From Rhizophagus irregularis (taxonomy: Eukaryota): DNA of 64,000 nt. The DNA lies in contig NC_089433.1 of the NCBI RefSeq assembly GCF_026210795.1, positions 4,464,001 through 4,528,000 of the forward strand, read 5' to 3'. How positions within the stretch are numbered: position 1 is the stretch's first letter; each line of letters begins with the position of its first letter. Shown here one piece after another: positions 9,013-48,200 of the stretch. The notes beneath the pieces were generated by a model. It was not told the DNA's origin, did not search any database, and saw nothing but the letters and a program-made list of their open reading frames with translations. The translations under genes were made by a program, and so were the position numbers.

Positions 9013-10596
9013 TCAAGGGATCTGAGATGGTGATGTGTTCGATAAAGTTGGAAGAGCGATAATTTTATCCTCAAAATCTGTTAATTTTAAATATAATCAA
9101 TTTTTTATAAAATTATAAAATCGATTAATTATTTAGCTTACCTTTTATGTTATCATCATTAATTGATGTTGGGAGAGAAAGATCATTTTGACCAGAGTCT
9201 TCTACAAAAATTTAAAATAATAATATTATAAATCAAATTTAATAAAAAATAATTATAAACATTATTACCTAAAGTTAATTTAGCAAGATGTTCTTTAACT
9301 CTTTGAAACGATAAGAAACGACTTGTATAACAAGTACCAGGATTATTACCGGTTAGGTTCATAGTTTTAAGAAGACTATACTTTTTTCTATGTAAATTTG
9401 CTAAATAAGTTTCATTTGGTTCTTTTTCATGATTTTCTAACGTTGTTATAATTTGTTGAGCTGTTGGACGATTTTTTGGGTCTGAATCCCAACATTTTTC
9501 CATTAAATCCATGATATATTTGGAAATACCCATTTTTGGAGAAATTTCTGGACGAAGACCTCTTATAATATCAAGAATCAGAGTCGCATCATGATTTCTG
9601 TTGTTAAAAGGCTCTTCAAATGAATATATTACCCACATAATAATTCCTAAGCTGTATATATCCGATGCTGGCGTATATTGTCTACCAAGAAATATTTCAG
9701 GAGCAATATATGGAATAACACCATAAATTCCTGATGATTTAATTGATGATGATATATTTGCAGGTTGGCATAATCCAAAGTCACTTATACTAAAGTAAAT
9801 GTCTCTACCGCCGTGTTCTCCACCTTTTAGTAAAATATTGCCTATGTGCAAATCACAATGAACTAAACCTGAATTATGCATGATATTAAGTCCTCGAGAA
9901 ATATGATAAACAGTATTTTCATTGGAACTTAAATTAACATCATATACAACGCAATATGCTAATTCTGCAGGTTTCATAATATTTTGTTTTAAATTACCCT
10001 TATTAGCATATTCGGCTACTATTATAAAGTCTTGAGTAATTGGATCATATGAAATTCCGTAAAATCTGATTAAAGAACAAGTCCTAAAATTTGTTCTGTT
10101 GGATTCCATACAATGAATATAATTTTTAACCTACAATTATTATGTAATATGAATTATAAACATAAAAAATCTCATAATTTAAATGTATTGTATATGAATG
10201 CGATTATTACTATACCTCGTTAAGAAAATCCATAGTTATATTTCTTGAATTATATAATTTCTTTAAAGCAACGTCATAAATTCCTTTCCATTTAGCTTTA
10301 TAAATCTCACCAAATCCACCTTTTGCTATATATGTGATTTCACTAAATTGGTTATAAGGTATCCATTTTAAAATTTCATTTGGTTTATTACATTCTTTAA
10401 TAAAATCATCTACAATTTTGTTTCCACTTGACCAATTCGACCAATTCGGATTTTCACATTCGTTGCATAATAATAGTGTTATGCCCCAACAATTAATACA
10501 AATGGACCGAGGGTATTTGTAAATATATTCATTACATTCTTTACACCATTCGATAATTCTACAATTTTCACACAATGTCTCTAATTTTGGTATCAT
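9013..10596 (-). CDS. TKL-type protein kinase with Cys-rich (CxxC) N-terminus, copy 1; exons 10596-10216, 10130-9269, 9201-9142, 9077-9013
   Basis: GGFG, VALKKL, HCDLHIGN, SDFG, APE, DIYSLG and CWDSDPKNRP motifs; exons join in frame at GT-AG sites; stop TGA 9015-9013. Confidence 0.93.
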
Positions 10597-13560: not shown

Positions 13561-15144
13561 TGGTTGGAATATGAACATCAAGTAGATTGTTGTTGTCCAT
13601 TATGATCTGAGGAATTGAAAAGCAAAGTAAACCACCTTTTATATTCATCATCAAACGGTATTGCTGGAGAGATCCGGATTAGCAAAATATTTATTAACAT
13701 CATTGACATGCTAAATATATTAAGTATTTGCGTTATTGCGTTAAGTATTTAATTTAACGTAATGGTGCCATATTGATATTTGATTTGTTCTTGAACTCAC
13801 CGACTTTTTAAATCATGGCAAAACTTAGAACGTTGGGTTGCAAGTCTTCTTTTCGTAGAAATCCTACGTATTATATTTTTAACTCCGCCAACATAAAAGA
13901 TACGTTTCAGTTGTTATATGACCATTAGCTGGCATAGAAGTTATACATTTTTTTGTGACGAGTAAAACATTGTAAGAGGGAATAGTAATGATAATATACT
14001 GTATGTAAAAAAATAGAACGTTGTACTTACTAATACGCCAGCTGCAAGTGCGCATTATATTATAACACTTTAGGACATTTTTTGTTGATCAACGCCGGTT
14101 CGAATCTAGAGAAATAAAACATCAAAGCACAACCGATTTTTGATAAATTAGCTTTCACTGAAATGAGCCAAGCCTAACACATAAATTGACGTATGACCAT
14201 CTTCAAATCGTATTGGAATAATCAGACGTCTGGAGAAATCTTCGGATTGAAGCAGTCTTTCCTGTCCTGTATAATGTTAATATGGGGATGTTAGTTCGCA
14301 TATAAAGTAGTATTCGTTTTGATGTTTGTTGTAACCATGTGCTTTCACATTCTATAATCTCGGGTAATTACAAATAAACATGAATTCTATAAAACGTTTA
14401 TTCATTTATGTATTTTTTTTTTGTCTAAATTTGTCTAACATCATAATATCAAAAAAAAAAAATAATAAATAAAATATCGAAAATAAAAATCTAGTAATCT
14501 CTAATTTGACATGATTTTCTAATTCTTTTGTTATTTCACCATCTTCAGAATTTTTTTTTTGGAGCTAATACTATTAAGTGTAGAAACGATTTCGGAAATA
14601 TCTTTCAAATTCCCAACATCCTATTTAAAGATTAGATAGACTAATTCTGGCTCATTCTTGGATGTCGATCATTGGGCTGGGGTGTATCAATGATACAAAG
14701 GATCTTTTTAGTTTATTTATTTGTTTATTTAGCACTAGAAGAACACGAAGTAAAAGAGAAATCTAATCTAATAGAAAAGAGAACAATGTTGTGACACCCA
14801 GTCTTTATAACCCTCCAAGCCCCCAAAAAATGGGAAACCTTTTTGAGTTAGGTCACAAACTTAAAATCCAAAATTATATATTTGTATGCATCAATTGAAT
14901 CATGCAATGCTTTAAGATTGTTCTAACTCTCAGTTTCCGAATAAATCGAGCAATTTATAAGTTTATCAGTGTTTTTGTATCATTAAAAAGGTAATTTCTA
15001 AACCTAAAATTGGAAAACAATAACGTCTTTGCATTTACATATAATTTTTACTCCAAAATAAATGAATAAGTAAATAAAAAAAATTTAATAAATAATTCTT
15101 TATATAACATGCAAGTGAAAAAAAACAATTAACAATTTTTTAAA

Positions 15145-16110
15145 ATGAATTTATCAGATTATATTCGGTCAATCTTCTTTAAAGTCAATATTAATAATGA
15201 ACGACAAAGAACATTTGTTCTTAACCTATGTACAAAATTTTTGTCTTCAGATACCCGTTCTTTTGGAATTCAATCTAATGATCTTAGTCGTTTTGAAATT
15301 GATGAATTGTATAAATTAGTATTTCGATCAAATGATGTCAAAATGTATTTTTCTCCTAATTCTTTTATAACTTTTAACATAATTCAATATTCATTAGCGA
15401 GTATTTTACCAATTTGTAAAGTATGGTTTCAACCTTATGTTGAAAGTTTAAGGAGATTAGACAAAGAAAAAAGAAGAGAATGGAACCAAAATAGTAACAT
15501 GAATAATCAAGTAGATAATATGAAGAATGATTTAATTAATAATATTGGTCAAATTTTACCTGGTTTTAATTATCTTATTGATTTCAATTGGGATGTTTAT
15601 GAGAATCATCGACATCATGAAGTTGGTGATTTGGTTTTTGGATCAGATTATGGTGTTATTATTGTTATTGAAACTAAGTGGTTTAATACTGATACTTTAA
15701 GCAAAGCGCAAGTAAACGCTAGAAAAAAAGCTAGAAACCGAGTTAGAAAGTATAGAGGATACGCGCAAGAAAAATTTATTGCAGTAAAAGCAATTGGGGC
15801 TGTTTTTACAAATGATACAGGAAATTCCATTCAGTTTGTAGATGATCAAGATGCGGGAATCGCCAAAATTATTGAAATTCATACTCAATATCTTTATAAT
15901 TTCGACCGTGGTAGGATTTCATTAGTTAATCTGTGTTTAATCTTTTTTTTTGTTTTCGTAAACTAATGATTTTTTTATAAAATTCTAGAAGAATGGGAAG
16001 AAAGTCCAGAAAAACGGGGAATATTAAAAACCATTCTATATTATATTATAATAGTATTATTAGTCATTGTTGCTGTAATTGTAGGTTTAGCTATTTTAAC
16101 CGTTCCATAA
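15145..16110 (+). CDS. PD-(D/E)XK nuclease-like protein with C-terminal transmembrane anchor, copy 1; exons 15145-15910 and 15989-16110
   Basis: VGDLVF...IVIETKW fits the D...ExK core. Exon 2 encodes ...KRGILKTILYYIIIVLLVIVAVIVGLAILTVP*. Confidence 0.75.
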
Positions 16111-18527: not shown

Positions 18528-20089
18528 TCAAGAATTCTGGGGTAGTGATGTTACTGATGTATTTGGTAATGTTGGAAGAGCGATAATTTCATCTCCAAAA
18601 TCTGTTTATTTTAAAATAAAGTCAACCTTTTATAAAATCGATTAATAATTAATATTTAGTTTACCTCTTATAAAATCATCATTATTAATTGATGTTGGGA
18701 GCGAAAGATTACTCTTCCCAGAATCTTCTACAAAAATTTAGAATAATACTATTTAAATTATAAGATCAAATTTAACAAAATAGTTTATAAAAATATATTA
18801 CCTAAAGTTGATCGAGAAAGATGTTCTTTAACACTTTGAAACGACAAGAATCGACTTGTATAACAAGTACCAGGATGATTACCGATTAGATTCATAATTT
18901 TAAGAAGACAAACCTTTTTCCTGTGCGAATTTTCTAAGAAAGGTTGGTTCGGACCTTCCTTTAGCATTGTAATAATTTGTTCAGCTGTTGGACGGTTTGT
19001 TGGATCTGAATCCCAACATTTTTCCATCAATTCTTTAATATAATTAGGAATACTTAACTGAGGAGGAATTTCTGGACGAAGACCTCTTACTATAATTTCA
19101 AGAATTAAATTTGCATCATGGCATCTGTTATTATAAGGTTCTTCAAGTGAATATAATACCCAAATAATAATTCCTAAACTATAAATATCTGACGCTTGTG
19201 TATATGGTTTCCCAAGAAATATTTCGGGTGCAACATATGGAATAACACCATAAATTCCTGATGATTTGATTGATGATGATATATTTGCAGGTTGGCTTAA
19301 TCCAAAATCACTTATACAGATTGGCATTTGATGCTGATTTCTTAATAAAATATTGCCTATATGCAAATCACAATGAACTAAACCAGAGCTATGTATTATC
19401 TTAAGTCCTTGAGCAATATCGAATATAATTCTTTTATTGGTACTAAATTTGTAATAATCATTATCTCTAAAGTTATAATTTGTAAATTCTACAGGTTCCA
19501 TGATATTTTTTTTTAAATCTCCTTTATCAGCATATTCAGTTACCATTATGAAATTTTGAGTAATTGAATCATACGAAATTCCATAAAATCTAGTTAAAAA
19601 AGAAGTATCACAATTTTTTCTATTTGATTCCATAGTCTGAATGTAATTTTTAACCTACAATTATAATACAAAAGTGAGTTATTAATATAATAAATCTCGT
19701 AATTTAAATGTAGTATTATGAGATACCTCATTAAGAAAATCAACGGTTATATTTTGAGAATCATATAATTTCTTTAAGACAACATAAGCTCCTTTCCATT
19801 TAGCTTTATAAATTTCTCCAAATCCACCTTTTGCTAAATATGTAATTTCACTAAATTGGTTATAGGGTATCCATTTTAAAACTTCATTTGGTTTATTACA
19901 TTCTTTAATAAAATCATCTACAATCTTATTTCCACTTGACCAATTCGACCAATTCGGATTTTCGCATTCATTACATAATAGTAGTTTTATGGTTTTACAA
20001 TATCCACAAATAGACGGAGAGTATTTATTAGATTGAACCTTACAATACTCACACCATCCAATTACTCTACAATTTTTACATGTTTCCAT
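18528..20089 (-). CDS. TKL-type protein kinase with Cys-rich N-terminus, copy 2 (four exons, paralog of 9013-10596)
   Basis: Same kinase motifs and intron positions as copy 1; last exon DFGDEIIALPTLPNTSVTSLPQNS* ends at 18528. Confidence 0.93.
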
Positions 20090-21104
20090 TGATTTTTTGT
20101 TTATAATTAAAAGAAAAGGGTTAATAAATTGTAGGATTATTGGACAAAATATATAAGCATTACATCATTAGGGAGAAAACACTCCGTTATCGTTTCACAC
20201 AATAACGAATTTGAAAATCCATCCGTTAAGACTTACTGTAAATAGTCAAAATTGCCATTATGCAAACGTGATTTATAGTAACACTTGCCTGACATTAAGT
20301 TACACATTAAATTAATACTTTATTTTTTAGACGATTTAGTTACAATTTGGCGTTCAAATGCTTTACAGTTGAGTTGACTTTACAAGGCGATGGACATTAT
20401 TAATTAAAAATGATATTTTTTTTTGAATCAATTTTTTGAATTTATTTTTTATTTTTTTTTTTAAATTTGATCGTTTCAATCGCAAAAGATTGTGGATAAG
20501 CTGCAAAAAGTTAAGATGATGATACTTAATATTAATTAATTTTTAACATACGTTAAATACTTGAAATAAATTTATAATCCATAATGATAAAACTTAATGT
20601 ATAAAAATATTAATTATTTTTTGAAAGTTTTGCTTGCGCAATTTGCGTAATTTAAATATATTAATATATTAATTTAATTTAACTTTTTGTATAATAATTT
20701 TTTAAATAATTATTAAGTGGCACCAGATAACATGAAATATCAATAATGATAATAAATTCTTGTTTCTTGTAATATACTATACTTTTGTGTACATCCATGC
20801 TTAAAATAGAATCAGGAAAAAAATATTTACCGGCTTTTCATACTGGATCTGCTCTGATTTTTAGATTTCCGAATAAATCGAGCAATTTTTACGTTTATCA
20901 GTGTTTTGTATCATGAAAAAGGTAATTTCTAAATCTAAAGTTGGGAGACAAAGACAGCTTTGCATTTACATATGATTTTTACTCTATAAAAAAAAATAAA
21001 CAAAAAAAAAAAAAATTAAATAAAAATTCTTTATATATATACCACATGCATAACATGTAAATGAAAAAAAAATTTTTATCAATTTTTTTTAAAACTTTCG
21101 AATA

Positions 21105-22053
21105 ATGTCATTCTTCTATGGAGTTGATGTTGACGATGAACAACAAAGAATATTTGTTCTTGACATATGCACAGAAATTTTATCTTCTTCCACGGATACC
21201 TATAATTGTTTTGACATTTCTAAATATAAAGGTCTTTATATTGATAAGCTGCTTAAATTAGTATTTCAATCGAATGATGTTAACGCACATCTTCTTCATC
21301 ATTCACTTGTTCGTGTTGACTTTAATGAAAATACATTAGCGAATGTTTTAAAAATTTGTAAAGTATGGTTTCAACCTTATGTTAGAAATTTAAAGAGAAC
21401 AGACAGAGAGAAAAGAAGAGAATGGGATCAGAATAAAAATATTTATCATCCAGAAGAAAAAATGAAGAATTATTTAATTAATAATATTGACAAAATTTTC
21501 CCCGGTTTCAATTATCTTGTTGATTTCGAATGGTGTGTTAATGAAGATTATCTTCATTATGGAATCGGTGATTTGATTTTTGGATCAGATTATGGTGTTT
21601 ATATTGTTATTGAAACTAAGTGGCTTAATACTAATACTGGAAAAACTGCCCAAGTATCTAGAAATATCGCTAGAAATAAAGTTAAATACCAATCTATAAC
21701 ATATAAAAAATATGCGCAAGAAAAATTTGCGCTAAAAGTAATTGGAGCTTCAGTTACGAATGATGAAGAAAACGCTATTCAGTTTGTAGATAATCAAGAT
21801 GAAAGAATCGCCTCAATTATTAAATATTATCATTCTGGTAAGAAGTATTTCATTAATTAATCTTTTTATCTAATATTTATATTAATCTTTTTTTTTTTAA
21901 TAAACTTTATTAGAATGGGGGACATTTAAAACTATTCTATATTATGTCATAATTTTTCCAATAAAATTAGTCGTTACTGTAATTGGTGTAATAATATTTT
22001 CAGCAATTATTACTGTACTTATAGGATCAATTATGAAAAATACCATTAAATAA
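21105..22053 (+). CDS. PD-(D/E)XK nuclease-like protein with C-terminal transmembrane anchor, copy 2; exons 21105-21837 and 21914-22053
   Basis: FEW...GIGDLIF...IVIETKW...KVKYQSITY gives E, D, ExK and QxxxY motifs. Exon 2 encodes EWGTFKTILYYVIIFPIKLVVTVIGVIIFSAIITVLIGSIMKNTIK*. Confidence 0.78.
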
Positions 22054-31283: not shown

Positions 31284-31864
31284 ATTTTTAATATTATTTA
31301 AATATTTGGTCAATATAGGAATTAAACCAAGGATATTTACTGGATTATATGATGCATTAGTTATTTTTTGATAAATCAAAGTCAACAATATAAATTAAAT
31401 ACAATCAGTTGTTGAAATAAGTATTTTACACTATTCATTTTTAATTTATGTATTGGAAATGGGTTTATATACTTAATATTTGATAATTTATAAAAAAAAA
31501 GGTTTTTTTAAATTATGAACTAAAGAAATTGTAAAATATTTATTACTCTAGTCCTAGTGTTTAAATAATTCTGAAATGAGAATACATATATTTTAATATT
31601 TGAATAGAATATAAAAAAAGGAATTATTTAAATTACAAACTAAGAATCCTTAAAATATTTTATCTAGCTATAGTGTTTAAATAAATTTAAAAAGAATAAT
31701 GAAGAACAATTTTTGTTAAATGCATGATATCAAATATTACTATATCTTTTTTAAGACACAAGTTAATTTTCATTTGTTTTAATATCTAAATGTTAAATAA
31801 ATAAAATTAAAGTTTGTAAAATAATTTATTTATTTTATATTATACTAGCTATATTATATACACT

Positions 31865-34800
31865 TTACATACCTAATTTCTTCAAATTAAATATGCATTC
31901 ATTCAAATCTTCGCTTATTAGCATTTCACTCACTTGTACACTAGTTTGTGAATTTTTACTTTCAAGAATTTCATTCAATTGTTTACTAGTAAAATTAAGT
32001 AAGCGACTTGTATAGCAAGCCTGTGAGTGAGATTCAGTAGCAAGGTTGTTATGCCCAATTGGTGCATTTATAAATTCCATAATATTGCATTTTAATTCTT
32101 CATTAATGTCTTCAATTTTCTTACCAGAAGGAAGAAAAATCCATTCATGAATAATATTTAATACTTCTTTAGAAGATGGTCTTTTTAATGGATCTCCATC
32201 CCAACATTTTTTCATCAAATCAACATAGCATTGCGGAGTATTTTCAATAATTTCAGGACGTTCACCTTCACAAATACTTAAACTAAGTTGAATATCATGT
32301 GCTCTATTATTAAATGGTGGTATTCCAGATGTAAATTCCCACAAAATCATAGAAAAACTATATATATCACTAGCTGGAGTATAAGGTTTGCCTCTTAAAA
32401 CTTCAGGTGCCATAAATGGTACAACACCATAAATCTTATACTCTTTCAAAAATGATTTTACAGGTTGACATAATCCTAAATCACTAATATAAATTCTGTC
32501 TGCTTTATTCTCTTCATCTTTATTATTATTATTATTTAAAATATTGCCATCATGAAAATCACAATGAATAAGATTTAGTCTATGTATATCATCAAGTCCA
32601 GAAATAATTTCATACAACATGTATAATTTATGGTCCCAACCACTTTTAACTATTCTTGTTAAGTTTCTTCTTAAATTACCTTTGTTTGCATAATCCATTA
32701 CTGCCATGTATTTCAAAGTATCTGGATTTTTTGTAAATCCATAAAAATAAATAATATCATATGAATTTGAACAACTTTCATGATATTTCCACTATAAAAA
32801 ATAATAATATATTAATACAAATAAATTATAATTTAAATTAAAAGAAAAAATAAATAATATAATATCATACTTCATTTAAAAATTCATTTAAATTTTCATT
32901 TAAATTATTATGGCATTTAAGAATTACTTCTATATTATTTCCATCATTCTTTAACCAAATAGCTTTGTATATAGTACCAAATCCTCCTTCATTAAGATAT
33001 TCAACATTTTTAAATTTACTATAAGGAATCCATCTTAACTTTTTTTCAAGAATAAATTCATCTATGATTTTATTTCCACTTTTTCCATATCTATAAATTT
33101 AAATAATTAGAAGTTTATAATATAATTTACACTAAAATTTAAAGATTAAAATTAACACTTACTCTAAATTTAAATAGGAATTTAAGATAAAATACGTCAA
33201 AGTTTTGTATAAATATTTATAATAATAAGCTATATTTCATAACTTACCAACTAAAGTAATAGAAATTTAAAATAAAAAAATACAGTTAACAAATAAATAT
33301 TATATATTATATAAAATATAACAATAGAAATAACAACTTACTAGCTATATTAAATAATTTTTTAAATAAAGAATTTAGTTAGTTTTAAATATTATAACAA
33401 ATAAGTAATAATAAAATTAAATAAATACTGTAACTTACACCCTATATTATTTAAATATTTTTTTAAATAAAGAATTTAGTTAGTTTAAATTATATGTAAA
33501 TATTATAACAATAAGTAATAATAGATAATAGAATTAAATAAATAACTTACGAGCTATATTATTTAAATAATTTTTCAAACAAAGAATTTAGTTAGTTTAA
33601 ATTATATGTAAATATTATAACAATAAGTAATAATAGATAATAGAATTAAATAAATAACTTACGAGCTATATTATTTAAATAATTTTTCAAACAAAGAATT
33701 TAGTTAGTTTAAATTATATGTAGATATTATAGCAATATTAAAGTAATAATAGAATCAAATAAATAACTTACACCCTATATTATTTAAATAATTTTTTAAA
33801 TAAATAATTTAGTTAGTTTAAATTATATGTAAATATTATAACAATAAGTAATAATAGAATTAAATAAATAATTTATAACTTACGATCTATTAAATAAAGA
33901 ATTTAGTTATTTAAATTGTATGTAAATATTATAACAATAAGTAATAATAGAATTAAATAAATAACTTACACTCTATATTATTTAAATAATTTTTTAAATA
34001 AAGAATTTAGTTAGTTTAAATTATATAACAATAAGTAAGAATAGAATTAAATAAATAACTTACCCTCTATATTATTTAAATAATTTTTTAGATAAAGAAT
34101 TTAGTTAGTTTAAATTATATGTAAATATTATAACAATAAGTAATAATAGAATTAAATAAATAACTTATAACTTACCATCTATTAAATGAAGAATTTAGTT
34201 AGTTTAAATTACATGTAAATATTATAACAATAAGTAATAATAGAATTAAATAAATAAATAACTTACTAACTAAAAGAAATTACAAAATAATTTTTTAAAT
34301 AAAGAATTTAGTTAGTTTTAAATATTATAACAAATAAGTAATAATAGAATTAAATAAATAATAAAATATTTTTTAAATAAAGAATTTAGTTAGTTTAAAT
34401 TATATGTAAATATTATAACAATGAGTAATAATAGAATTAAATAAATAATTTATAACTTACGATCTATTAAATAAATAATTTAGTTAGTATAAATTATATG
34501 TAAATATTATAACAATAAGTAATAATAGAACTAAATAAATACTATAACTTACACCCTATATTATTTAAATAATTTTTTAAATAAAGAATTTAGTTAGTTT
34601 AAATTATATGTAGATATTATAGCAATATTAAAGTAATAATAGAATCAAATAAATAACTTACACTCTATATTATTTAAATAATTTTTTAAATAAAGAATTT
34701 AGTTAGTTTAAATTATATGTAAATATTGTAACAATAAGTAATAATAGAATTAAATAAATAACTTACCCTCTATATTATTTAAATAATTTTTTAGATAAAG

Positions 34801-36793
34801 AATTTAGTTAGTTTAAATTATATGTAAATATTATAACAATAAGTAATAATAGAATTAAATAAATAACTTATAACTTACCATCTATTAAATGAAGAATTTA
34901 GTTAGTTTTAAATATTATAACAAATAAGTAATAATAGAATTAAATAAATAATAAAATATTTTTTAAATAAAGAATTTAGTTAGTTTAAATTATATGTAAA
35001 TATTATAACAATAAGTAATAATAGAATTAAATAAATAATTTATAACTTACGATCTATTAAACAAATAATTTAGTTAGTATAAATTATATGTAAATATTAT
35101 AACAATAAGTAATAATAGAACTAAATAAATACTATAACTTACACCCTATATTATTTAAATAATTTTTTAAATAAAGAATTTAGTTAGTTTAAATTATATG
35201 TAGATATTATAGCAATATTAAAGTAATAATAGAATCAAATAAATAACTTACACTCTATATTATTTAAATAATTTTTTAAATAAAGAATTTAGTTAGTTTA
35301 AATTATATGTAAATATTGTAACAATAAGTAATAATAGAATTAAATAAATAACTTACCCTCTATATTATTTAAATAATTTTTTAGATAAAGAATTTAGTTA
35401 GTTTAAATTATATGTAAATATTATAACAATAAGTAATAATAGAATTAAATAAATAACTTATAACTTACCATCTATTAAATGAAGAATTTAGTTAGTTTAA
35501 ATTACATGTAAATATTATAACAATAAGTAATAATAGAATTAAATAAATAACTTATAACTTACCATCTATTAAATGAAGAATTTAGTTAGTTTAAATTACA
35601 TGTAAATATTATAAACAATAAGTAATAATAGAATTAAATAAATAACTTACAAGCTATATTATTTAAATAATTTTTTAAATAAAGAATTTAGTTTGTTTAA
35701 ATTATATGGAAATATTATAACAATAAGTAATAATAGAATTAAATAAATAACTTATAACTTACGACCTATTAAATAAAAAATTTAGTTAATTTAAATTATA
35801 TGTAAATATTATAACAACAAGTAATAATAGAATTAATAAATTATTTATAACTTACCATCTATTAAATAAAGAATCTAGTTAGTTTATATTATATGTAAAA
35901 TATTATAACAATAAGCAATATTAGAATTAAATAAATAACTTACTCCCTATATTATTTAAATAATTTTTCAAAGAAGAATTTAGTTAGTTTAAATTGCATG
36001 TAAATATTATAACAATAAGTAATAATAGAAATAAATAAATAAATAACTTACTAACTAAAAGAAATTACAAAATAATTTTTTAAATAAAGAATTTAGTTAA
36101 CTTAAATAATAGATATATAGACGTCATATAACTTACACCCTGTAGTATTATCAATTATTAATTGGTTAGATATAAATTTAATAGAAAAGTATTTACTATA
36201 ATTAATATATCACTTACAATCTATTTATTTAAATTAAAAATATGATTAGTTAGATTATATTAAAATATTAAATATTAATAAATAAACATCATATTAATAT
36301 AATATCCTTAAGGCTTAAGTAATATAACTTACCAGCTGTAAAATTATTAATTAGTTATTTAAATAAAGAATTTAGTTATTTGAATATTATATAAAATAAA
36401 TAAAGTGAAAAACTAAAAATTTAATAACTAATAACTTACAAACTATAGTATTATTAATCATTAAATGAATTATTTAGTTATATATAACATAATAAAAATA
36501 ATAATTAATATTTGCAAAATTGTTTAAACTTTTTATGGGATAATTCTAATTTTATATTCTGTATGATTACCTTTATCAATACATTGATCCATTACTATAT
36601 CAAATTCTTCCTAATTGGAAAGATAAAGTAAATATCTTTTTTTTTCTTTTTTTTTATTATTTATACTAAACGTCTTATTAGTACAGATAAATATGGTAAT
36701 AATATTTATGCAAAATGCATTGTATACAAAATGTTGATCACAAGTACAAGTATTATATGTATGACAAACAAATTTTGCATATCTGGAATGCAT
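31865..36793 (-). CDS. TKL-type protein kinase whose N-terminus is encoded by a microexon array; exons 36793-36728, 36610-36571, 31 x 3 nt (36442-33248), 1 nt (33163), 33090-32871, 32791-31865
   Basis: Kinase domain is intact (EGGFG, VILKC, HCDFHDGN, SDLG, APE, DIYSFS, CWDGDPLKRP) and certain. The 5' structure is inferred from splice signals and phase compatibility. The first ATG could instead be 36592. Confidence 0.82.
33163..36442 (-). repeat. Tandem array of ~85-115-bp intron units separated by 3-nt microexons
   Basis: Plus-strand motif ACTTAC-NNN-CT(A/G) occurs 31 times, read on the minus strand as YAG|NNN|GTAAGT. Core units carry a CTAAC branch point (aactaactaaattc). Confidence 0.9.
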
Positions 36794-39620
36794 ATCAATT
36801 ATCTAGCAAAAATCACAAAATAGAGAAACTTTTCTTAATACATATTAAATATACAAAATTTTAAAAGTCATTGAGATTATATTTGGCTACTTTACAAGTA
36901 TGCATTAAAATTATTTACAATTAACAGTTAAGTATACGCAAGATTTTTTGAAATAAAGCTAAAAAATAAGTTTATTAATTATAAAAATATTTAACTTTGA
37001 AATTAAAAGTCATGTAAGGTGAAAATTTTTGGGTGATATTGGAAACAGTATTTATATATATTATTTTTATTTTTTTTTTTTATCAAAAATTGTGGTATAA
37101 GGGCTTTTTTCATTTCATTTTCATTTTTTGGTCTCATTCCTTTTCCTTGGCCTTTTTTGTTTCATTTATTTGGTTTTTCTTATTTTTGACCCCCTCACAG
37201 GAATATAAAATTTAAATTTTTTACTGGTTTTCATTGATCAAATAAAAATTAAAAAATTAACCTGTCAAAGAATTCTGTAAAATCATATATCTGATATTGT
37301 CATATAACGAGTTGTGGATAAATGATAAATCACTATTAAAAACATTTAGCCAATCAATTTTAATTTGAAAATCATATGATAGGGCTGAAACTTATCATTT
37401 TATTATTGTATAAAGCTTAGTTTTGTGGCTATGGAAGTGGCTTTTTATAACCAATTCTCAGCTTTGATGGATATCACTTTAATTGGAATAATTATATGTT
37501 GTATTTTTATTTATATTTGGCTAGAAAATTTAAGTATAAATAAGCCTCAAATTCATGATCCCCTTTGATTTTCTTTTTTCTTTGTTTTTCAAAAATGTAA
37601 TTCAATTATACTACTACAACTTGTTATATTATAAAACACTTATTAGTTTTTTGGAAAAAACAATAAAGCAAACTTAGAATTTTACACTAAATAACTTTCC
37701 TTTTATTACAATCTAATTATAAAATATTTTAACTATATTTAAACACAAATTTCTGTATTAAAAAAATTTTGATGTTTAAAGGATTTTTAAAAGCATTCAA
37801 TGACAATTTAAACAAGTAGCCATAAAATTATTTATGCATCAAATTATTAAATTACATAAATAAAAATTGGCAAATTTAATTTGGATTTGTATTCCTTTAC
37901 TTCAGAGTACAAAAAAACAATATTTCTATTATTGACCTTTAAAGTTAATAAATCAAGATTATAAAGATTGCTCATTGATGAACTTTGATGTAATGATTGA
38001 ATAAACTTCATCCTAAATAATTTAAATATAAGAATAATTAAGCAGTATGTAATGCAGTCAGATGAAAAGAAGCTTTAAATTTGAATATTTACTGTATACT
38101 AGTTGGTTTATTGTCTCAAATCTTCTTGATTTCAGCACACATAATCAAACATAATTATATTGAATTTGTATAGTACTTTATACTTTATAAATTAAATTAA
38201 AAATATTCTAGAAAAGAATATTTTTTACTACAAATATTTGGACTTACCACCAAAAAAATGGAACTTTTGGAAAACTATAAATTATATATAGATAAAGACC
38301 AAATATTGAAACATAATACTTCAGAAATCAAAGCTAAGCAAGTAATTTCTGATGAGATTTATAGTGTTTTTAGAATTTGGCTTATAAAATTCTCAGTATA
38401 CTTCATTGAGTTAATGAGTTCAGTCTTTTTTTAAACAATGGATGAAAAAAAATTGGATGTTAGAAAGATATTTATAAAATTACAGTTAATGATCTTTCCA
38501 AAACACAAAAAGCAAATAATAGCTAGTCTATCTCTTGGATATGAAAATATTCCATATTCTAGTATATTTATATTACAAATGAATTTTCCGTTCAAATACC
38601 CAAAATAATTTTGATAAAATTAAAAAATACAAATCTAAATAATTTGTCTACTTATAATCAGTATTTATTATATTTTTTATAATTTGTAATTAATATAGAG
38701 TAGATCCACTATAGCTCGTAAACCTCATAAATCAAACTAAACAATATTTTACTGTAAATATATTAGAAATTTGGAATATTAATATCACCAAGGAAATATG
38801 AAATTGAAGTTCCAATTTGTAATGGAATTCTCAAAATTTATCAATACTCCTTTTGATAATATTCTCTTGATAAATGTTATCAATACCATCTCCAATATTT
38901 ATCTATTACTTACCTATACATTCTATTTATTTTTTTAATTATATATACAAATCTTTCTTAAAAATATACTTATTTTACTTTTTATTTAATAATTGAATGA
39001 TTAATTATAGTAAATAGTTTCCTTCAATACCTATTAGCCAAATATTGTGTTTACATCAATGGTTAAACAATGCTTAGACTTTATATATTATTTAATGTAT
39101 TAGTCTTTATAAAGAACTTCTATGCGAAGCACAGGTATCATATTTATAATTTAAGTTAATTGGTTTGTCTAAGTTTAATATTTAAATATCAGCAAAATCT
39201 ATTTCAATTCATCAAAAAATGTCATCAACTTCTAAAGATTCAAAGGTGGCATATCAACTCTCAATAAGTGATATCATTTGGATGTTCTTAACAACACATA
39301 TCAATATTCAAGGAGAAGTATTTTGGTACTAATGTTAATTTAAAAAACAAAATCTGAGCTCTAGTAAAAATTTGAAAATAAAAAGACTTCAAAAATACTT
39401 GAAGAACTGGCCAACTTTATATCTTATTTATGAAATTGTTGATAATTCTAACCTTACTTCACATACAACAAAAAACTAATTTTGGTAAATTTGAAAATTT
39501 GGGTGAGATAAATAAATTCTGGTTATATAAAATTACCTTTTATGCTTAATTAAGATTGTTCAGCAAGTAAAACATACCTGTATTTTAATTTTCATGAAGC
39601 TAAGTATGATATTTATACAA

Positions 39621-39770
39621 AATGAACCTTTACATCCAATTAAAGTAGGCCAACCCTTTGATAGACTGGAAATAGTAGTAAGGTATTCAATAGCAACTAC
39701 AATATATACATATTCCTCTTCTTGTTTTGGGTAGTGGTCCTACAATGTCCAAGTGGCCAGAAGCCCGAGC
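39621..39770 (+). mobile_element. Ty3/Gypsy-type integrase remnant with an internal micro-inversion
   Basis: NEPLHPIKVGQPFDRLEI on +, DIVGPLPKTRRG...VVAIEYLT on -, then KWPEARA on +. This is the start of an rve integrase core. Confidence 0.75.
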
Positions 39771-40898
39771 CATGTTACAGAAAAGCATATTTTTTATAAT
39801 GAGATAAAAATTCAACCCCTTATCAATAGCTTAGATTCTATTGTTATAAATAAACAAGCATTTAACAGAAGAAATGTTAAGTTTCAACAATCTTAGAATT
39901 GATTATGGAAGACTCCTATGCATTGAATCATTATTTGGCACAATTCAATATAATTTATTATTCATGAATATGTTCTCCAAAAGTATAAAAATAAATAGAA
40001 TTATTTATTTTTCATCTCACCAAAAAGTTTTAAAAAAAATAAGAAAAACAAAAAAATTCTTATTCTTTTAAAATTAAAATTTAATTATGAAACAAATTAC
40101 AAATAGTATTAAATAAATGAATCATGGGTAATTTTCATATTTTGTTGGGTTATATCCTCAATATGTTGAAGAAATAAGTTATAGTATTAAATACATCATC
40201 ATCATGTATGAAAGATGGTAAATGTCAAAAACATTATCCAAAAAACTTTCAAGAAATTAAATGATAATTATCAATTAAAACTTTTGATTGGAATTATGTA
40301 AATCATGAAAAGGAAAAATAAACTACACTATAACTGAAACTGGCATAAGCTATACATCCAGTAGTAGTACATTAGTTTTAATTTCAAATGATAGTAACAT
40401 TTTTTTATATATTCATTTATTAATAGTAAAATGTGATGGAATTTGTTATATAAACATGTTTGAATGATGATTTATCAAAGTAACAAAGTAAAAGTTTTGT
40501 ATGTCATTATTTTGGTCATGGATACAAAGAATGCCAAAATATCGATAAAACCTTTTTATCAAATGATACATGTTTTAACTCCCTATAAAAAATATGTATA
40601 CGGTTTTTATACTGTATATACGTATTTTTGATACAGTTTGCATTTTTACATACGGCATATCAGTATAATGTATACTGTTCGCAAAATGTGCTTAGTAAAA
40701 AATACAATAAAGTATACGGTAAACATACTGTGTGATACGGTATATTAAATTCATACGTCTATAACGTATATCATTTCTACTGTATATCAGTATTTTGTAT
40801 ACGGTTCACAAAAATATTGTAAATAAAGGATACGGTATTCGTATTATTCTACAGTATATTAAAATTCATACGTTTATAACATATTTTCTACAGATATA

Positions 40899-42840
40899 TA
40901 CAGGTCAAATAAATAAAAATCAGATTTTTGCCCTTTTTAATATGGCTGTCTGATTTTTTGGCAATTTTAATATAATATTTCCGATTTTAATAAATATTTC
41001 TGATTTTAATATAATATTTCTGATTTTTAACATGAAATTGCCGATTTTTGGTTATTTGTAATAGGATTTTTCAATTTTAATATGTAACATGTGATTATGT
41101 ATTACGGTTTAATATTTATTTATTAACTTAGATTTTTTTTTATTTCAGTTATAATTATTTTTTTGCCTTAAAAACTTTACTAAAATACTTTTTAAATACT
41201 TTATAAAATAGAATTAAAATATTTTTTTTCTTAAATATAAATACATTTAAATTAAATAACTCATAATTTAAAATATAAACAAATATTATATTTTTTTTAC
41301 ATATATTTCAAAGTATGGTTTGAGCATTTTGGCTGAAGTAAATCTTATTCTTTTAATTAAAAGTAGTTTAGTAAGTTTAAAACTGTTAAGATCATAAAAG
41401 TACAGTTAATATTTTTGGAATTATTTACATTTTTTATATTATACAGTAGTATTAAGTTACAAATTTTTTTACCTTCAGAGCGTATTTTGAGATCTTTAGC
41501 CAAAGTAAATCAACTTCTTATATTAATTGTAAGTTGTTCGGCAGGTTAAAATCTACTTGGATATTAATTTTCACGAAGGTACAGTTAATACTTGATGAGT
41601 TATTTACAATTTTCACAACAGTACTCATTCACGACTTTTATTTTTTTCATTTTGTCACTCCAGAGCGTATTTTGAGCACTTTATCCAAAGTAAACCAACT
41701 TCTTATATTAATTGAAAGTTGTTTAGCATGTCAAAATCTACTTGAATATTAATTTTCACGAAGGTACAGTTAATACTTGATGAGTTATTCACGATTTTCA
41801 CAATGGTACTCATTTACGAATTTTATTTTTTCCGTTTTGTCACTTCAGAGCGTATTTTGAGCACTTTAGTCAAAGCAAATCGACTTCTTTTATTAATGCA
41901 AAGTTGTTTAGCATGTCAAAATCTACTTGAATATTAATTTTCACGAAGGTACAGTTAATACTTGATGAGTTATTCACGATTTTCACAATGGTACTCATTT
42001 ACGAATTTTATTTTTTTCCGTTTTGTCACTTCAGAGCGTATTTTGAGCACTTTAGTCAAAGTAAATCGACTTCTTTTATTAATTGAAAGTTGTTTAGCAT
42101 GTCAAAATCTACTTGGATATTAATTTTTACGAAGGTACAGTTAATACCTGATGAGTTATTCACGATTTTCACAACAGTACTCATTTACGAATTTTATTTT
42201 TTTCCGTTTTGTCACTTCAGAGCTTATTTTGAGCACTTTAGTCAAAGTAAATCGACTTCTTTTATTAATTGAATGTTGTTCGGCAGGTCAAAATCTACTT
42301 GGATATTAATTTTTACGAAGGTACAGTTAATACCTGATGAGTTATTCACGATTTTCACAACGGTACTCATTTACGAATTTTATTTTTTCCATTTTGTTAC
42401 TTCAGAGCGTATTTTAAGCACTTTAGCCAAAGTAAATCGACTTCTTTTATTAATTAAAAATTGTTCAGCAGCTTAGAATCTACTTGAATATTTATTTTAA
42501 TGAAGGCACAGTTAATATTTGTGGAGTTATTAATTTTTTATAATTGTGCGTATTACATTAAATTACAAGTAAATTTATATTCTTAATGTATTTTGTTTAA
42601 AATTTAATTATTTAACATTAGTTTTTTATTTAATATTGCTTAATAAAATATTTTTTAAATTTTAATTCAATATTATAATATAATTTTTTATAAAAATATA
42701 TATTTCATAATGTATATACAATTTTTTTGTATAGTGAAAAAACTGAAAAATGTGGTTAAGAATTGGTAATACAGCTGTAAAAAGTCACAAATCGGACAAA
42801 TATAGCTAAAATCAGCCAATTTTTATTTATTTGACGTGTG
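40899..42840. mobile_element. Nested CACTA-like element inside the 5.9-kb element
   Basis: tacaggtcaaataaataaaaat ... atttttatttatttgacgtgtg inverted ends flanked by ATA on both sides; GATTTT-type subterminal repeats at 40920-41050. Confidence 0.7.
41300..42530. repeat. ~185-bp tandem repeat, about 6 copies
   Basis: gaaggtacagttaata anchor (last copy gaaggcacag) at 41575, 41760, 41945, 42131, 42317 and 42502. Confidence 0.92.
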
Positions 42841-43048
42841 ATAGAGTAAGTTTTTCTACACTTTAAAGCATCAAACAATACTAGTATCTGCTAATATATA
42901 CTACCCAAAAACTCACTGATGTAAAATCACAATTATTAAAAAATTCACAAGAATTTTTGTTAATACTGTTTAATTTTTAAGTTCAAAGTCCGATTGATAA
43001 TACTAAATTCAAAACTCAATTATAAATCATTTTTATAAATTATAATTT

Positions 43049-43840
43049 AAAAATTAAGCAGTATTAAGGAAAATTCTCATGAATTTTTCTTAATACTACT
43101 TAATTCTAATTTAACCAATTTAGTATTAAGGTTTTAATTTAAAAATTAAGCAGTATCAAGGAAAATTCTTGCGAATTTTTCTTAATACTGCTTAATTCTA
43201 ATTTAACTAATTTAGTATTAAGGTTTTAATTTAAAAATTAAGCAGTATCAAGGAAAATTCTTGCGAATTTTTCTTAATACTGCTTAATTCTAATTTAACT
43301 AATTTAGTATTAAGGCTTTAATTTAAAAATTAAGCAGTATCAAGGAAAATTCTTGCGAATTTTTCTTAATACTGCTTAATTCTAATTTAACTAATTTAGT
43401 ATTAAGGCTTTGATTTAAAAATTAAGCAGTATCAAGGAAAATTCTTGCGAATTTTCCTTGATACTGCTTAATTCTAATTTAACTAATTTAGTATTAAGGC
43501 TTTGATTTAAAAATTAAGCAGTATCAAGGAAAATTCGCAAGAATTTTTCTTAATACTGCTTAATTCTAATTTAACTAATTTAGTATTAAGGTTTTAATTT
43601 AAAAATTAAGCAGTATCAAGGAAAATTCTTGCGAATTTTTCTTAATACTGCTTAATTCTAATTTAACTAATTTAGTATTAAGGCTTTAATTTAAAAATTA
43701 AGCAGTATCAAGGAAAATTCTTGCGAATTTTTCTTAATACTGCTTAATTCTAATTTAACTAATTTAGTATTAAGGCTTTGATTTAAAAATTAAGCAGTAT
43801 CAAGGAAAATTCTTGCGAATTTTTCTTAATACTGCTTATA
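43049..43840. repeat. 92-bp tandem repeat (9 copies), each with a ~54-bp hairpin
   Basis: aaaaattaagcagtat starts at 43049, 43141, 43233, 43325, 43417, 43509, 43601, 43693 and 43785. Stem aattaagcagtatcaaggaaaattc / gaatttttcttaatactgcttaatt. Confidence 0.95.
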
Positions 43841-44937
43841 TCTGCCAATTCGTGAAATTAGCCAAACATAAAGATTTGCACATTTTAACAAGAATTATGT
43901 TTCACAAGCTTAAATTGTATGTGTTACATAATCAGATGATCTAAATCTATCAAAAAATAAAAAAAATTTTTTAACGTTTATTCAAAAATAACAATGGCAA
44001 CTACTTTCTTTTTCAATCACTTTTCAATCACTTTTCAATCAGATTTTTGTTAGGTGACTTAGAAAAGTTTATAGGCATATATAGCAGGTTTTTTTTAATC
44101 AGTAAGTAAGAAAACAAATATTAATAATTTTATTAATAAGAAAAATCTTTTTTCATTTATTTTTAACCTTATTTCCTTCTTTTTTTTAGTAAAAATATAT
44201 ACAAAATAAAAATGTGAGTTATGATTTAGAGTTTTTGAGATGTTTTTTTTTGTTTTTTACTATACTAATTTTATTCTACTTGTTAATTACTTTTTAAAAT
44301 TGATTTTATTAATTTATTCAATTTAAAACAGAAATGGCAAATAAAAACTTGTTAAGTAAAGTAAAAAGAGCCCAATAATACCTGTAAAGATCATCTTTTG
44401 GTAAGAATTATAATTTTAAAAATTTTTGTGTCAGAGTTTTATTCAATTAACAAAATCGTTAATATCTCGGCGCACATGTATGCTAAACACATATATTTAT
44501 ATTCATATGAAAGCCCAGAATCTACTCTACCTGAACGAAAAAAGATTATTCAAATCGAATTACTAGATGTGAAGATATTAACGATCAAAGTCAAAGGTTA
44601 AAAATAAATATATTGAACGTAATTATTCAGCAACTTGTGATCCAATTCATGTGATATTTGGTTTATGGATAGCTCTTGATTACCTCTTTCTAATGAATAT
44701 AAATTCATTCGTCTAGCACACATACACGTTAAGTTATTCAATATTTTGTCATGACAATTATATTTAAATTTTTTAATTTTAATGATATTATTAAAAAAAT
44801 CAAAAAATAATATAATCAAATCAATTTTATTTATATCAGCGGTGTGAATCTATCATTTTCATGTAAATTGTATTAGCATTTTCTTAATAAAGTTAGTTTT
44901 TTGAATATAAAAACTTAATTCCATAAATCAGCCCATA

Positions 44938-45200
44938 TGTTAATTCTAATTTAACTAATTTAGTAGTATTAAGGCTTTAATTTAAAAATTAAGCAGTATC
45001 AAGGAAAATTCTTGCGAATTTTTCTTAATACTGCTTAATTCTAATTTAACTAATTTAATATTAAAGCTTTAATTTAAAAATTAAGCAGTATCAAAGAAAA
45101 TTCTCACAAATTTTTCTTAATTCTAATTTAGCTAATTTAGTATTAAGGCTTTAATTTAAAAATTAAGCAGTATTAAGAAAAATTTTTACAAATTTTCTTA
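44938..45200. repeat. Further 2-3 degenerate copies of the 92-bp hairpin repeat
   Basis: Same unit resumes after ~1.1 kb of unrelated sequence. Confidence 0.85.
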
Positions 45201-48200
45201 TTAAAAAAAAGAACTTTTAAATTACTAATTAAACTTTAAAAACAATCTGTATGATTTAAATTTTAAAAAAAATACTTCTGCTTTTTAATTTTCGCATTTC
45301 TATATTTAACCAATTAAAATTCAGCTGATCGCCGATCACATGCATTAATAACACGTTATTGTTTATTTTTTGTTTATTTTTTCAAAAATATTCTTTTCTC
45401 TTCTTTTTTTTTAGAAAAAAAAAGACAATAAAAATGAATACCAAAATTATTTTAACATATAATAATAAAAATTAAATAAAAAACTTATTTTGATAATATA
45501 TAATATATATATTTGTACCAAACTACTAATTATACAAAAAGTGATATGCACGTATATCAATTAACAATTACTTTCACTAATATCTCACTGGAATTGTAAT
45601 GGTGAATTTTAACAATATTAATTAAACAACTATATATACACCGTTTTATGTTTTTATTTTTGCATTAATATTATATGTTAACATATATTAATTATATTTT
45701 TTTTTACTTTTATGTATTTTATTTAATTTTTTTAATATATTACTAACATTACTACTATCGTTTTATTACTTTTTTATATCTAACTAATATATTAATAATA
45801 TTACTAACTTTTTATTATTTCTTTTTTATATTTAAAATAATGATAATATTACTAATTAAATTTCTTTTTTTTTACTAACCTTTTATTATTCCTTTTTTAT
45901 ATTTAAAATAATGATAATATTACTAATTAAATTTCTTTTTTTTTGTTTATATTTTGCTAATATTATTTTTTTTACAAATAGTATATTATTTTATACTAGT
46001 TTTTTATTTATATTATTTATAAAAAAATATTTGTATATTTAATATTATTTAATAAAAATTTTATTGATTATAAATGCATTTTAAATTCTGTTTGCAAATA
46101 TAAAATATACGATTTAATTGAATAATATATACTATTTATCAGTACAAAATATGCAGTTTAAACTGGAAAAAAGTACTGTTTATCAGTATAAAATATACGG
46201 TTTATCCTGGAAAAGTATACTGTTCGCAATATAAAATATAAAACAATATACTGTTTATTGGTATAAAACATACGGTTTTTCTACTGTTTACAAGTATAAA
46301 ACATACGGGTGAAACTGGAAAAATATACTGTATGCAAACCGTATATATGATACGGTGTGCAGAATACCGAATATATACAGTATGTGAAAATACTGTAATT
46401 ATACGGTAATAATACTATAAATATACTGTTCGCAAAATACGAAAATACAGTATACTAACCGTATATATATTTTTTATAGGGACTGTTGGAAATGAGCAGA
46501 AAATAATTTCAAACAAGATGAGACATTTAATATTATTTAATAATAATATATTATTAGCAATTAAAGTTTAATAGAATTCAAAATCATTTTTGATTTATTT
46601 TTATTATTCCAATGAAAGAAAAATTTGAAAGTCATTGTCAACTTAAAAAATGTCAATTTATATTATTTGGCATTCTAGATTTACAATATACAGAGTTATT
46701 GTTTTCCAGATATGTAAAATGACAGAAAGTTAGAAAGTATGTAATAATAAGAATGATGATAACAATAATAATTATGCAGAATTATAGAGACTAAAGAAAC
46801 ACACAAAGTAGAAGTAGAAGATGAAGCAGAAGCAGATAGAGAATTACAAGAAAGTGAAAAAAGAAGAGGAAGACGAAATAGGAGAAGAAGAAGGCGAAGG
46901 AAATTATTATAGCACAGATAATGATATGAAAGAAAGAAATAGAATGGATTTCTGATAAAACACTACCACCATTTGTTTAATATAAATAAAATAAGCACAA
47001 ACAATTACATTACTACAATCCATAATAATAAATATTTTTATGGAATTAAATTAAAAAAAAATGCAACAAATCCAATGATAGATGCAGCAATTGGATTCAA
47101 ATCTTACAGCATTCTATATGGAAAATAACAATAAATTAAACTAAATAATACACTAAAGACTCAAATGCAGCAAGCTTCCGAAAGCAAAAATGAAGATAAT
47201 GACATATGAGTAATAATCAACAACAAGTAAAACTTAGAAAAAAATTCAAATAATTAAAATAACCAACTTATGTTCTTAATATTTTATATACAGGATGTGC
47301 TATAAAGCTATTACAGTGAGATTACCAAGTTGATTACATGGTAAAAAACCTGAAAATAATTATGACTATACATAGGTTGTGATTGTATAGAAATCTCTTA
47401 ATTAATTATAGGAAGTGTGTGTTATTATATGAGGTTTAACTGTATTCAAATTTAGTATAAATTTGAAGTTTTAAAGTTGACCAGCTTATGAATGTTGAAT
47501 TCTAGCCATAGAAGAAAGATAAAACCATTAAACTGATTAAAGTCATGGTGGAAAATAAATTCTACACAGAAATTTTACTTACTTCACTGGGAATATCCAA
47601 TTTGTCAAATTTGCAGTAGATTATTACACTTTTTCATTTATTTTGGATGATACCCTACCTATCAACAAAATCTTTATTTAAAGTATCATGATGTTAATGG
47701 ACAAATAACACAGCTCACGCTGATAATATAGGATGGCATTTATATATACAAATAAATTTAAATTTCTTGCAGCTTACTTATTCTATTGCAAGGTCAAATT
47801 TTATCATTGTTTAATGCATATTAGCAATATTATTATCAATTCTTCTAAAGTTGCTGAAAGATAGAGTGTGGAAATAAGAGTAACCAATGATGATTCTAAC
47901 ATCATGATATTGTTAAAATATATATTCTTATGATAGCAATGTGATGATTATTAAGTGGCAAGATGAGACTTTCGAAGTTGCTACAGAATGCAGAGAAATG
48001 CCTCATCTATAATTAGTATCAAGGTACACAATATTGAAAAAGACAAATCAAATGATAATACATTAAATGAAAGAATTTTACAAAATGTAATACTAAGGAG
48101 AAGGATAGCAAAGAAAAGCCTGCCAAGAAATGGATAAGGACTTGCTTTTGCATTATTTCAATTTTATATTTACAAAAAAATATTCAAAAAAAAATATCAA

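What the first reader, a model, noticed from the sequence alone, without database searches (positions are those of the whole stretch)
33163..36610. Kinase N-terminus encoded by 31 three-nucleotide exons hidden in an apparent minisatellite
Seen: every repeat junction reads YAG|NNN|GTAAGT on the minus strand with exactly 3 variable nt, and core units carry a CTAAC branch site. In transcript order (lowest coordinate given): TTT 36440, CTG 36333, ATT 36218, GGT 36137, TTA 36052, GGA 35944, ATG 35856, GTC 35763, CTT 35651, ATG 35563, ATG 35469, AGG 35357, AGT 35252, GGT 35143, ATC 35051, ATG 34879, AGG 34767, AGT 34662, GGT 34553, ATC 34461, TTA 34267, ATG 34176, AGG 34064, AGT 33970, ATC 33884, GGT 33772, CTC 33663, CTC 33551, GGT 33439, CTA 33342, TTG 33248, then a single A at 33163. 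The upstream exon (36610-36571) ends in phase 1, so the joined message reads ...MDQCIDK-VSDWFRNGPYDEEWYHEEWYLNEEYRSPRSIE-YGKSGNKIIDEFI...WIPY-kinase with no stop. The outer introns have diverged from the core repeat yet keep the exact splice-NNN-splice layout, which argues for selection. Established: microexons exist, and Schistosoma micro-exon genes use short symmetric exons for variation. I do not know of a comparable long array of 3-nt exons, but I could not search. Inference: a gene architecture in which one intron unit adds one amino acid, invisible to ORF and ab initio predictors.
Basis: partly seen in the sequence, partly recalled or inferred. Interest (0 to 1): 0.97.

Follow-up and report, generated by a model that had tools for sequence, protein, structure and literature searches.

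The report
Kinase spelled by 31 three-base exons
A 3.3-kb repeat in front of a kinase gene of the root-symbiotic fungus Rhizophagus is a chain of 31 short intron-like units separated by three variable bases each, and RNA from sister genes keeps the last of these tiny pieces, so the repeat likely adds one amino acid per unit to a fast-changing protein end that current gene annotation misses.

Summary
Observation confirmed: 31 YAG|NNN|GTAAGT junctions (none elsewhere in 64 kb) plus a one-base exon sit between a start exon and an intact kinase, and the joined frame is open. The kinase exons are identical to a Rhizophagus irregularis DAOM 197198 protein whose annotated model misses the array. Spacers are 72-191-nt intron-like tandem copies; triplets differ about eight times more per site than introns. 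Ten of 185 homologous gene models show similar runs; three soil relatives keep the one-base exon. Precedent: tens of alternatively spliced codon-sized microexons in Tuber nank genes, so this is a variant of a known design; I found none in print for Glomeromycota or kinases. This scan has noted the layout on other DNA at least ten times. 'Invisible to predictors' is only partly true.

The parts
36571..36610 (-). Predicted start exon (ATG at 36592), ends in phase 1
   Evidence: Sequence; first 7 residues match the start of homologue P0115 at 6 of 7. No RNA laid here.
33248..36442 (-). Array of 31 three-base exons (15 types) separated by 30 intron-like units of 78-191 nt
   Evidence: last triplet supported by RNA of paralogues
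34295..35498 (-). Recent block duplication inside the array: 614 nt repeated at an offset of 590 with 3 mismatches (five triplets)
   Evidence: could not be checked against DNA reads
34882..35050 (-). Double-length intron (169 nt): two repeat cores with the junction between them gone
34270..34460 (-). Double-length intron (191 nt), the copy of the same loss in the duplicated block
33163..33163 (-). One-base exon (A) that sets the frame of the kinase
   Evidence: same site in L001-L003; RNA loose ends and 7 joint reads of paralogues
32871..33090 (-). Kinase exon: glycine loop to helix C
31873..32791 (-). Main kinase exon (Pfam PF00069, 105.8 bits, cut-off 31.7)
   Evidence: intron 32870-32792 removed in 31, 36 and 21 reads
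31763..31785 (-). Last coding exon with stop
   Evidence: Matches the tail of GBC11388.2

Best explanation
The repeat is a chain of 31 three-base pieces and one single-base piece, each flanked by perfect splice signals, that is likely spliced into about 32 N-terminal residues of an intact Rhizophagus protein kinase. Inferred: (1) each 72-191-nt intron is recognised by intron definition and removed one after another, since a 3-nt exon cannot hold two spliceosomes; (2) the array grows and shrinks by duplication or loss of 'intron plus triplet' units, which always keeps the frame; (3) because the exons straddle codons, each residue is made from the last base of one exon and the first two of the next, so duplication, loss or skipping creates new residues at the joins; (4) the triplets diversify faster than the introns, giving each paralogue of this expanded kinase family its own variable N-terminal segment, most likely for partner or non-self recognition.
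For: 31 of 31 pattern matches in one array, chance mean 1.0. Triplets 43% G+C against 12% in spacers. Among 23 core units (253 pairs, not independent) introns differ at 0.08 per site and the triplets at 0.62; 14 exons with the same 14-nt upstream flank carry 6 different triplets. No donor-like site in the array lacks its acceptor three bases upstream, apart from intron-internal partial matches; the two lost junctions were removed whole. RNA (4 runs, 3 studies): depth 33-115 per direction in the three raw runs at 33060-33084, at most 2.3 at 33110-33280; loose ends at the exon's 5' edge in 119, 171 and 53 reads and 2 contigs whose consensus reads, in message sense, triplet + TTG + A + exon start in all four runs (read by hand); 2, 2 and 3 reads join the kinase exon to the single A still attached to its upstream intron. 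L001-L003 carry the same one-base exon between diverged introns, L002 also the TTG exon. Ten of 185 homologous gene models have N-terminal runs built almost only of residues with T or G as middle base (319 T/G, 40 A, 2 C), the bias of the window's triplets.
Against: Most reads are from paralogues (13 of 478, 12 of 599, 0 of 202 reads at 99% or more); the loose ends start at 33087, where paralogues differ from this copy, and no loose end at 33090 is among the 21 rows shown (43 hidden). Consensus agreement is only 0.65-0.71, so the letters beyond the first ten are a mixture. The DNA of the paralogues behind these reads was not seen. No protein returned or 77 that I read has an N-terminus in the predicted frame. 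Skipping the whole array is in frame. Stop avoidance is weak evidence: 3.7% of shuffled orders are stop-free, but block copies inflate this and only 10 of 225 type pairs make a stop. One junction in L003 has a broken acceptor. The recognition function has no direct evidence.
Confidence: 0.74

Rival explanations
1. In this copy only the outer, older microexons are used; the recently amplified core is mostly or wholly skipped as part of one long intron, so the 31-exon message is rare or absent.
For: Any skip of whole triplets keeps the frame; 399 of 435 skip joins are stop-free; skipping all 31 is open. RNA bears only on the last pieces, and of paralogues.
Against: Core triplets are the most diverged part of near-identical units while their splice sites are intact, which is hard to get without inclusion. 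Loose ends have median lengths of 38-49 bases (74 in contigs), longer than two or three triplets, though they may reach into ordinary upstream exons.
Confidence: 0.14
2. The exons are real but read one exon = one codon, with a five-base last exon using the donor four bases downstream, giving a hydrophobic Gly/Ile/Leu/Met segment that might anchor the kinase in a membrane, as several annotated models have it.
For: That frame has 0 stops in 31; 18 of 185 homologous models end their N-terminus with the residues this five-base exon would give; a middle base of T or G fits hydrophobic residues and glycine.
Against: The RNA consensus in 4 of 4 runs shows one base, not five, before the kinase exon. 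The start exon has two stops in that frame. Models with the longest runs read the upstream acidic exon in a shifted frame, as expected from a gene finder forcing an open frame.
Confidence: 0.05
3. The array is a neutral minisatellite seeded by an intron boundary; the RNA loose ends come from ordinary exons of paralogues.
For: Near-identical units and a 590-nt block duplication show amplification by a repeat process; the paralogues' DNA was not seen.
Against: A neutral repeat would not have its most variable and most G+C-rich three bases locked between invariant AG and GTAAGT, in outer units that are 18-39% diverged; the 7 joint reads show the donor behind the single A in use; relatives keep the site.
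Confidence: 0.05
4. The number of exons is inflated by an assembly error that doubled a 590-nt block (true count 26).
For: 614 nt with 3 mismatches; no DNA reads were laid on the array.
Against: The two copies differ at a few sites and end in different acceptor types. This changes the count, not the architecture.
Confidence: 0.08

Closest known systems
[quoted passage not shown] 2012; primary paper not held; known here only from passages in PMC4986451, PMC3689799, PMC10197012, PMC13449251)
   Same: Fungal, plant symbiont, expanded gene family, tens of 3-nt exons, read as a means of diversification
   Different: Here the gene is a kinase in Glomeromycota, the array is N-terminal, the introns are near-identical tandem copies still amplifying, the exons straddle codons, and a one-base exon closes the array. 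Alternative splicing is reported for nank and untested here. Whether nank introns are tandem copies I could not read.
Schistosoma micro-exon genes (MEGs) (bioRxiv 10.1101/2023.06.21.545858, passages seen)
   Same: Runs of short exons, mostly multiples of three, that allow in-frame skipping
   Different: MEGs have 10-20 exons of mostly 15 nt, introns of 0.1-5 kb, and encode secreted proteins made largely of microexons; here exons are all 3 nt, introns 72-191 nt, and the array is about 94 nt of a 1.3-kb coding sequence
Isolated 1-3-nt exons in fungi, e.g. Coprinopsis cinerea (PMC12230235, passages seen)
   Same: Shows that fungi splice 1-nt (13 exons in 13 genes) and 3-nt (27 exons in 26 genes) internal exons
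   Different: Nearly always one such exon per gene, not 32 in a row
Expanded protein kinase repertoire of R. irregularis (2,533 genes; PMC10234402, passages seen)
   Same: The catalytic exons belong to it (PF00069/PF07714; identical to GBC11388.2)
   Different: The passages seen do not mention microexons; annotated models start inside or behind the array

Membership tests
Tuber nank microexon genes | NACHT and ankyrin domains | tested here: not met
   Pfam finds only kinase families on the main exon and nothing on the 73-residue exon
Tuber nank microexon genes | Tens of codon-sized (3-nt) exons | tested here: met
   31 in DNA; RNA support only for the last pieces, in paralogues
Tuber nank microexon genes | Alternative splicing of the microexons | tested here: inconclusive
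   Loose-end agreement of 0.65-0.71 fits skipping or a mixture of paralogues
Tuber nank microexon genes | Expanded paralogous family | tested here: met
   778 proteins at E <= 1e-60 among 2163 candidates; the named ones among the 120 listed are all Rhizophagus
Schistosoma MEGs | Short exons of mostly three-fold length | tested here: met
   31 of 32 microexons are 3 nt
Schistosoma MEGs | Long introns (0.1-5 kb) between the microexons | tested here: not met
   72-191 nt, median 102: at or under the lower edge
Schistosoma MEGs | Secreted protein with signal peptide, coding region mostly microexons | tested here: not met
   Microexons are 94 nt of about 1,275 coding nt and the rest is a kinase; no signal-peptide predictor was run
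Protein kinase (PF00069) | Profile score above the curated cut-off; glycine loop, catalytic Lys, catalytic Asp, APE motif | tested here: met
   105.8 bits against 31.7; motifs read by eye (motif names recalled). Activity not tested.
Recursive (zero-length) splice sites | AG directly followed by GT, nothing kept in the message (definition recalled) | tested here: not met
   Three bases (or one) lie between AG and GT, and RNA keeps the last two pieces

The most novel reading that the evidence does not exclude
A whole subfamily of arbuscular-mycorrhizal kinases carries a codon-by-codon diversification device: tandem 'intron plus triplet' cassettes whose exons straddle codons and use only T or G at the wobble base, so that duplication, loss and combinatorial skipping yield a large in-frame library of variable N-terminal peptides per gene, a receptor-like repertoire that every Rhizophagus annotation has missed or read in the wrong frame.
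Probability: 0.3. Interest if true: 0.9.

Novelty: new variant of a known kind. Interest (0 to 1): 0.7.

Why it matters
R. irregularis is the model mycorrhizal fungus, has about 2,500 kinase genes of mostly unknown role (PMC10234402) and has public RNA data. If the arrays are spliced, a subfamily of these kinases has a hidden, fast-evolving N-terminus that annotation misses, which offers a handle on what the expansion is for. It is also a tractable natural test of how a spliceosome handles 32 consecutive exons of 1-3 bases, and of how tandem duplication of an intron-plus-codon unit creates new introns and protein sequence.

Tried and rejected
No whole genome is held, so no genome-wide count of arrays was possible. 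No RNA holder on record was listed for the kinase stretch; raw runs of the same species label were laid instead. Reads could be laid only on 32560-33280, so the array core and the start exon remain without RNA or DNA read evidence. Metagenome scan: 41 loci, of which only L001-L003 carry the one-base-exon site, with at most 335 nt upstream; the other 38 show no such site. A junction motif found 1 match in prokaryote genomes (L042, not followed, taken as chance) and 0 in viral contigs. Searches for transcript-derived proteins with the predicted N-terminus: none among the sequences read (all listed; 19 of 32 read; 25 of 150 read). ESM Atlas on the first 110 residues of P0138 gave unnamed Mucoromycota clusters, no use. 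tblastn of homologue N-termini against 36401-45000 found no further coding exon beyond the start exon. A wider donor scan found no second array in the window. Redrawing the middle base from codon usage was dropped as a test, since it also changes Trp and Tyr codons to stops. Literature searches with no paper on this in AM fungi: 3 papers listed, none on this by title or abstract; 0 each; 61 papers, 20 listed; most subscription journals are not in the library, and no supplements were read.

Full report
Observation. On the minus strand the pattern [CT]AG.{3}GTAAGT occurs 31 times, all between 36442 and 33248, and never on the plus strand; a one-base version lies at 33163. Shuffled windows give 1.0 matches on average and at most 5 in 200. 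The 33 spacers are 72-191 nt; 24 of 33 hold CTAAC and 31 of 33 a relaxed branch motif 10-50 nt before the acceptor; only 2 of 33 have another AG in the last 45 nt. A wider donor scan found no second array in the window.

The gene. The two large exons encode a kinase (PF00069, 105.8 bits). They are identical to GBC11388.2 of R. irregularis DAOM 197198 over the 73-residue exon and the first 306 residues of the next, and a last exon at 31785-31763 gives that record's tail. That model begins with five residues that match an ATG triplet of the array read on into its intron, possible at five places, so the annotation misses the array. The family is large: 778 proteins at E <= 1e-60. With the array the protein would have about 425 residues (my sum).

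Anatomy and history of the array. The core introns are tandem copies. A block of 614 nt is repeated at an offset of 590 with 3 mismatches, copying five triplets. Two introns are double-length: two repeat cores with the junction between them gone whole, one event copied by the block. The outer introns differ by 18-39% from their nearest neighbour and keep the layout. Among 23 core units (the four outermost 5' units, the last unit and the two double ones left out), introns differ at 0.082 per site and triplets at 0.62; the 253 pairs are not independent. Fourteen exons share the same 14-nt upstream flank and carry six different triplets. Triplets are 43% G+C, introns 12%, kinase exons 27%. This is the pattern expected when splice signals are kept and the exon bases diversify; it is inference, since no isolates were compared.

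RNA. Four runs from three studies were laid on 32560-33280 at 90% likeness: 478, 599 and 202 reads and 28 contigs, of which 13, 12, 0 and 16 were 99% or more alike, so most come from paralogues; two short contigs of X2 match this copy without a difference. The ordinary intron 32870-32792 is removed in 31, 36 and 21 reads, a positive control. Depth falls from 33-115 per direction at 33060-33084 to at most 2.3 upstream of 33110. At the 5' edge of the exon, 119, 171 and 53 reads and 2 contigs run on with letters that lie on nothing in the stretch. Read by hand in message sense, the consensus in all four runs is a triplet, then TTG, then a single A, then the exon start. Further up, the consensus splits into triplets that nearly all have T or G in the middle, like the window's; with agreement of 0.65-0.71 these letters are a mixture and I give them little weight. 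In 2, 2 and 3 reads the kinase exon is joined to the A with the upstream intron still attached (20-21 letters on the short side), as a partly spliced message would be.

Relatives. Of 41 metagenome loci, three are close (63-84% over this exon), and all three have the one-base exon between diverged introns; L002 also has the TTG exon, and L003 has one intact triplet junction and one with a broken acceptor. Among 185 homologous gene models from R. irregularis, R. diaphanus and R. clarus, 10 have N-terminal runs of 21-67 residues made almost only of residues with T or G as middle codon base (319 T/G, 40 A, 2 C; runs were selected for this bias), 18 end their N-terminus with the residues of a five-base version of the last exon, and 8 read through the intron before the single A. 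I infer that these are gene finders picking triplet exons as whole codons; the RNA says the true last exon has one base. No protein with the predicted N-terminus was found.

What speaks against. An open frame proves little: one exon = one codon is also stop-free (0 of 31; the third frame has 7 stops), and skipping all 31 triplets is in frame. Only 3.7% of shuffled orders are stop-free, but block copies inflate this. No single-exon skip makes a stop (0 of 29) and 36 of 435 skip joins do; with random inclusion of 0.9, 0.7 and 0.5, 97%, 80% and 61% of isoforms stay open. Skipping is therefore tolerated, but not shown. Unexplained: the middle base is T or G in 31 of 31 triplets (15 types), although it is the wobble base, A would be silent in 18 of 31 codons, and the kinase exons use A at 140 of 381 third positions.

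Mechanism. Most likely the introns are removed one at a time by intron definition (established knowledge for short fungal introns, recalled), the array changes by gain and loss of whole intron-plus-triplet units, and the product is a variable N-terminal segment on an intact kinase. A role in partner or non-self recognition is an analogy with fungal NLR genes and has no direct evidence here.

Known systems. [quoted passage not shown] Schistosoma MEGs have longer exons and introns and encode secreted proteins (passages). Coprinopsis has isolated 1- and 3-nt exons (passages). PMC11121469 (abstract and outline) describes a single regulatory microexon in Trichoderma. The gene works like the nank design but is not a member of that family. 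Searches for microexons in Rhizophagus or Glomeromycotina found nothing on this. This scan has noted the same layout on other DNA at least ten times, in fungal HET and kinase-HET genes, protists and Trichoplax; none for this genome or this protein. These notes are unchecked and are not used as support.

Verdict. Real feature; microexon splicing very likely for the family (about 0.9) and likely for this copy (about 0.74); new variant of a known kind; interest 0.7.

Noticed in passing
window 33248-36442 (-): Middle base of every triplet is T or G, never A or C, though it is the wobble position; the same bias shows in homologous gene models. Cause unknown (splice-site constraint or stop avoidance).
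   Followed up: partly
window 32928-32935: RNA reads of paralogues diverge here with Glu/Asp-rich letters; homologues P0191 and P0197 have a long acidic insertion at this loop of the kinase, a second variable site.
   Followed up: no
window 36571-36610 (-): Start exon begins Met-Asp-Gln; homologues P0055 and P0081 begin Met-Gly-Gln, a possible myristoylation start (motif recalled). Several homologues have an acidic Glu-Phe-Glu-Gly-Ser repeat exon behind the start exon that this copy lacks.
   Followed up: no
window 38913-38922 (-): A strong donor 2.3 kb upstream of the start exon; may end a 5' untranslated exon.
   Followed up: no
L003 1-250: One intact triplet junction, then a local duplication with a junction whose acceptor is broken, then the intact one-base exon: a possible decayed unit.
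   Followed up: partly
window 9183-10596 and 18785-20164 (-): Two other kinase genes with Cys-rich N-termini and no microexon array.
   Followed up: partly
window 41473-42531, 43043-43838, 44940-45202: Other tandem repeats (periods 185, 92, 82) without the strict acceptor-triplet-donor layout.
   Followed up: partly
window 15133-15966 and 21093-21860 (+); 4178-4870 (+) and 6861-7990 (-): Two pairs of similar-looking open frames, likely local gene duplicates.
   Followed up: no
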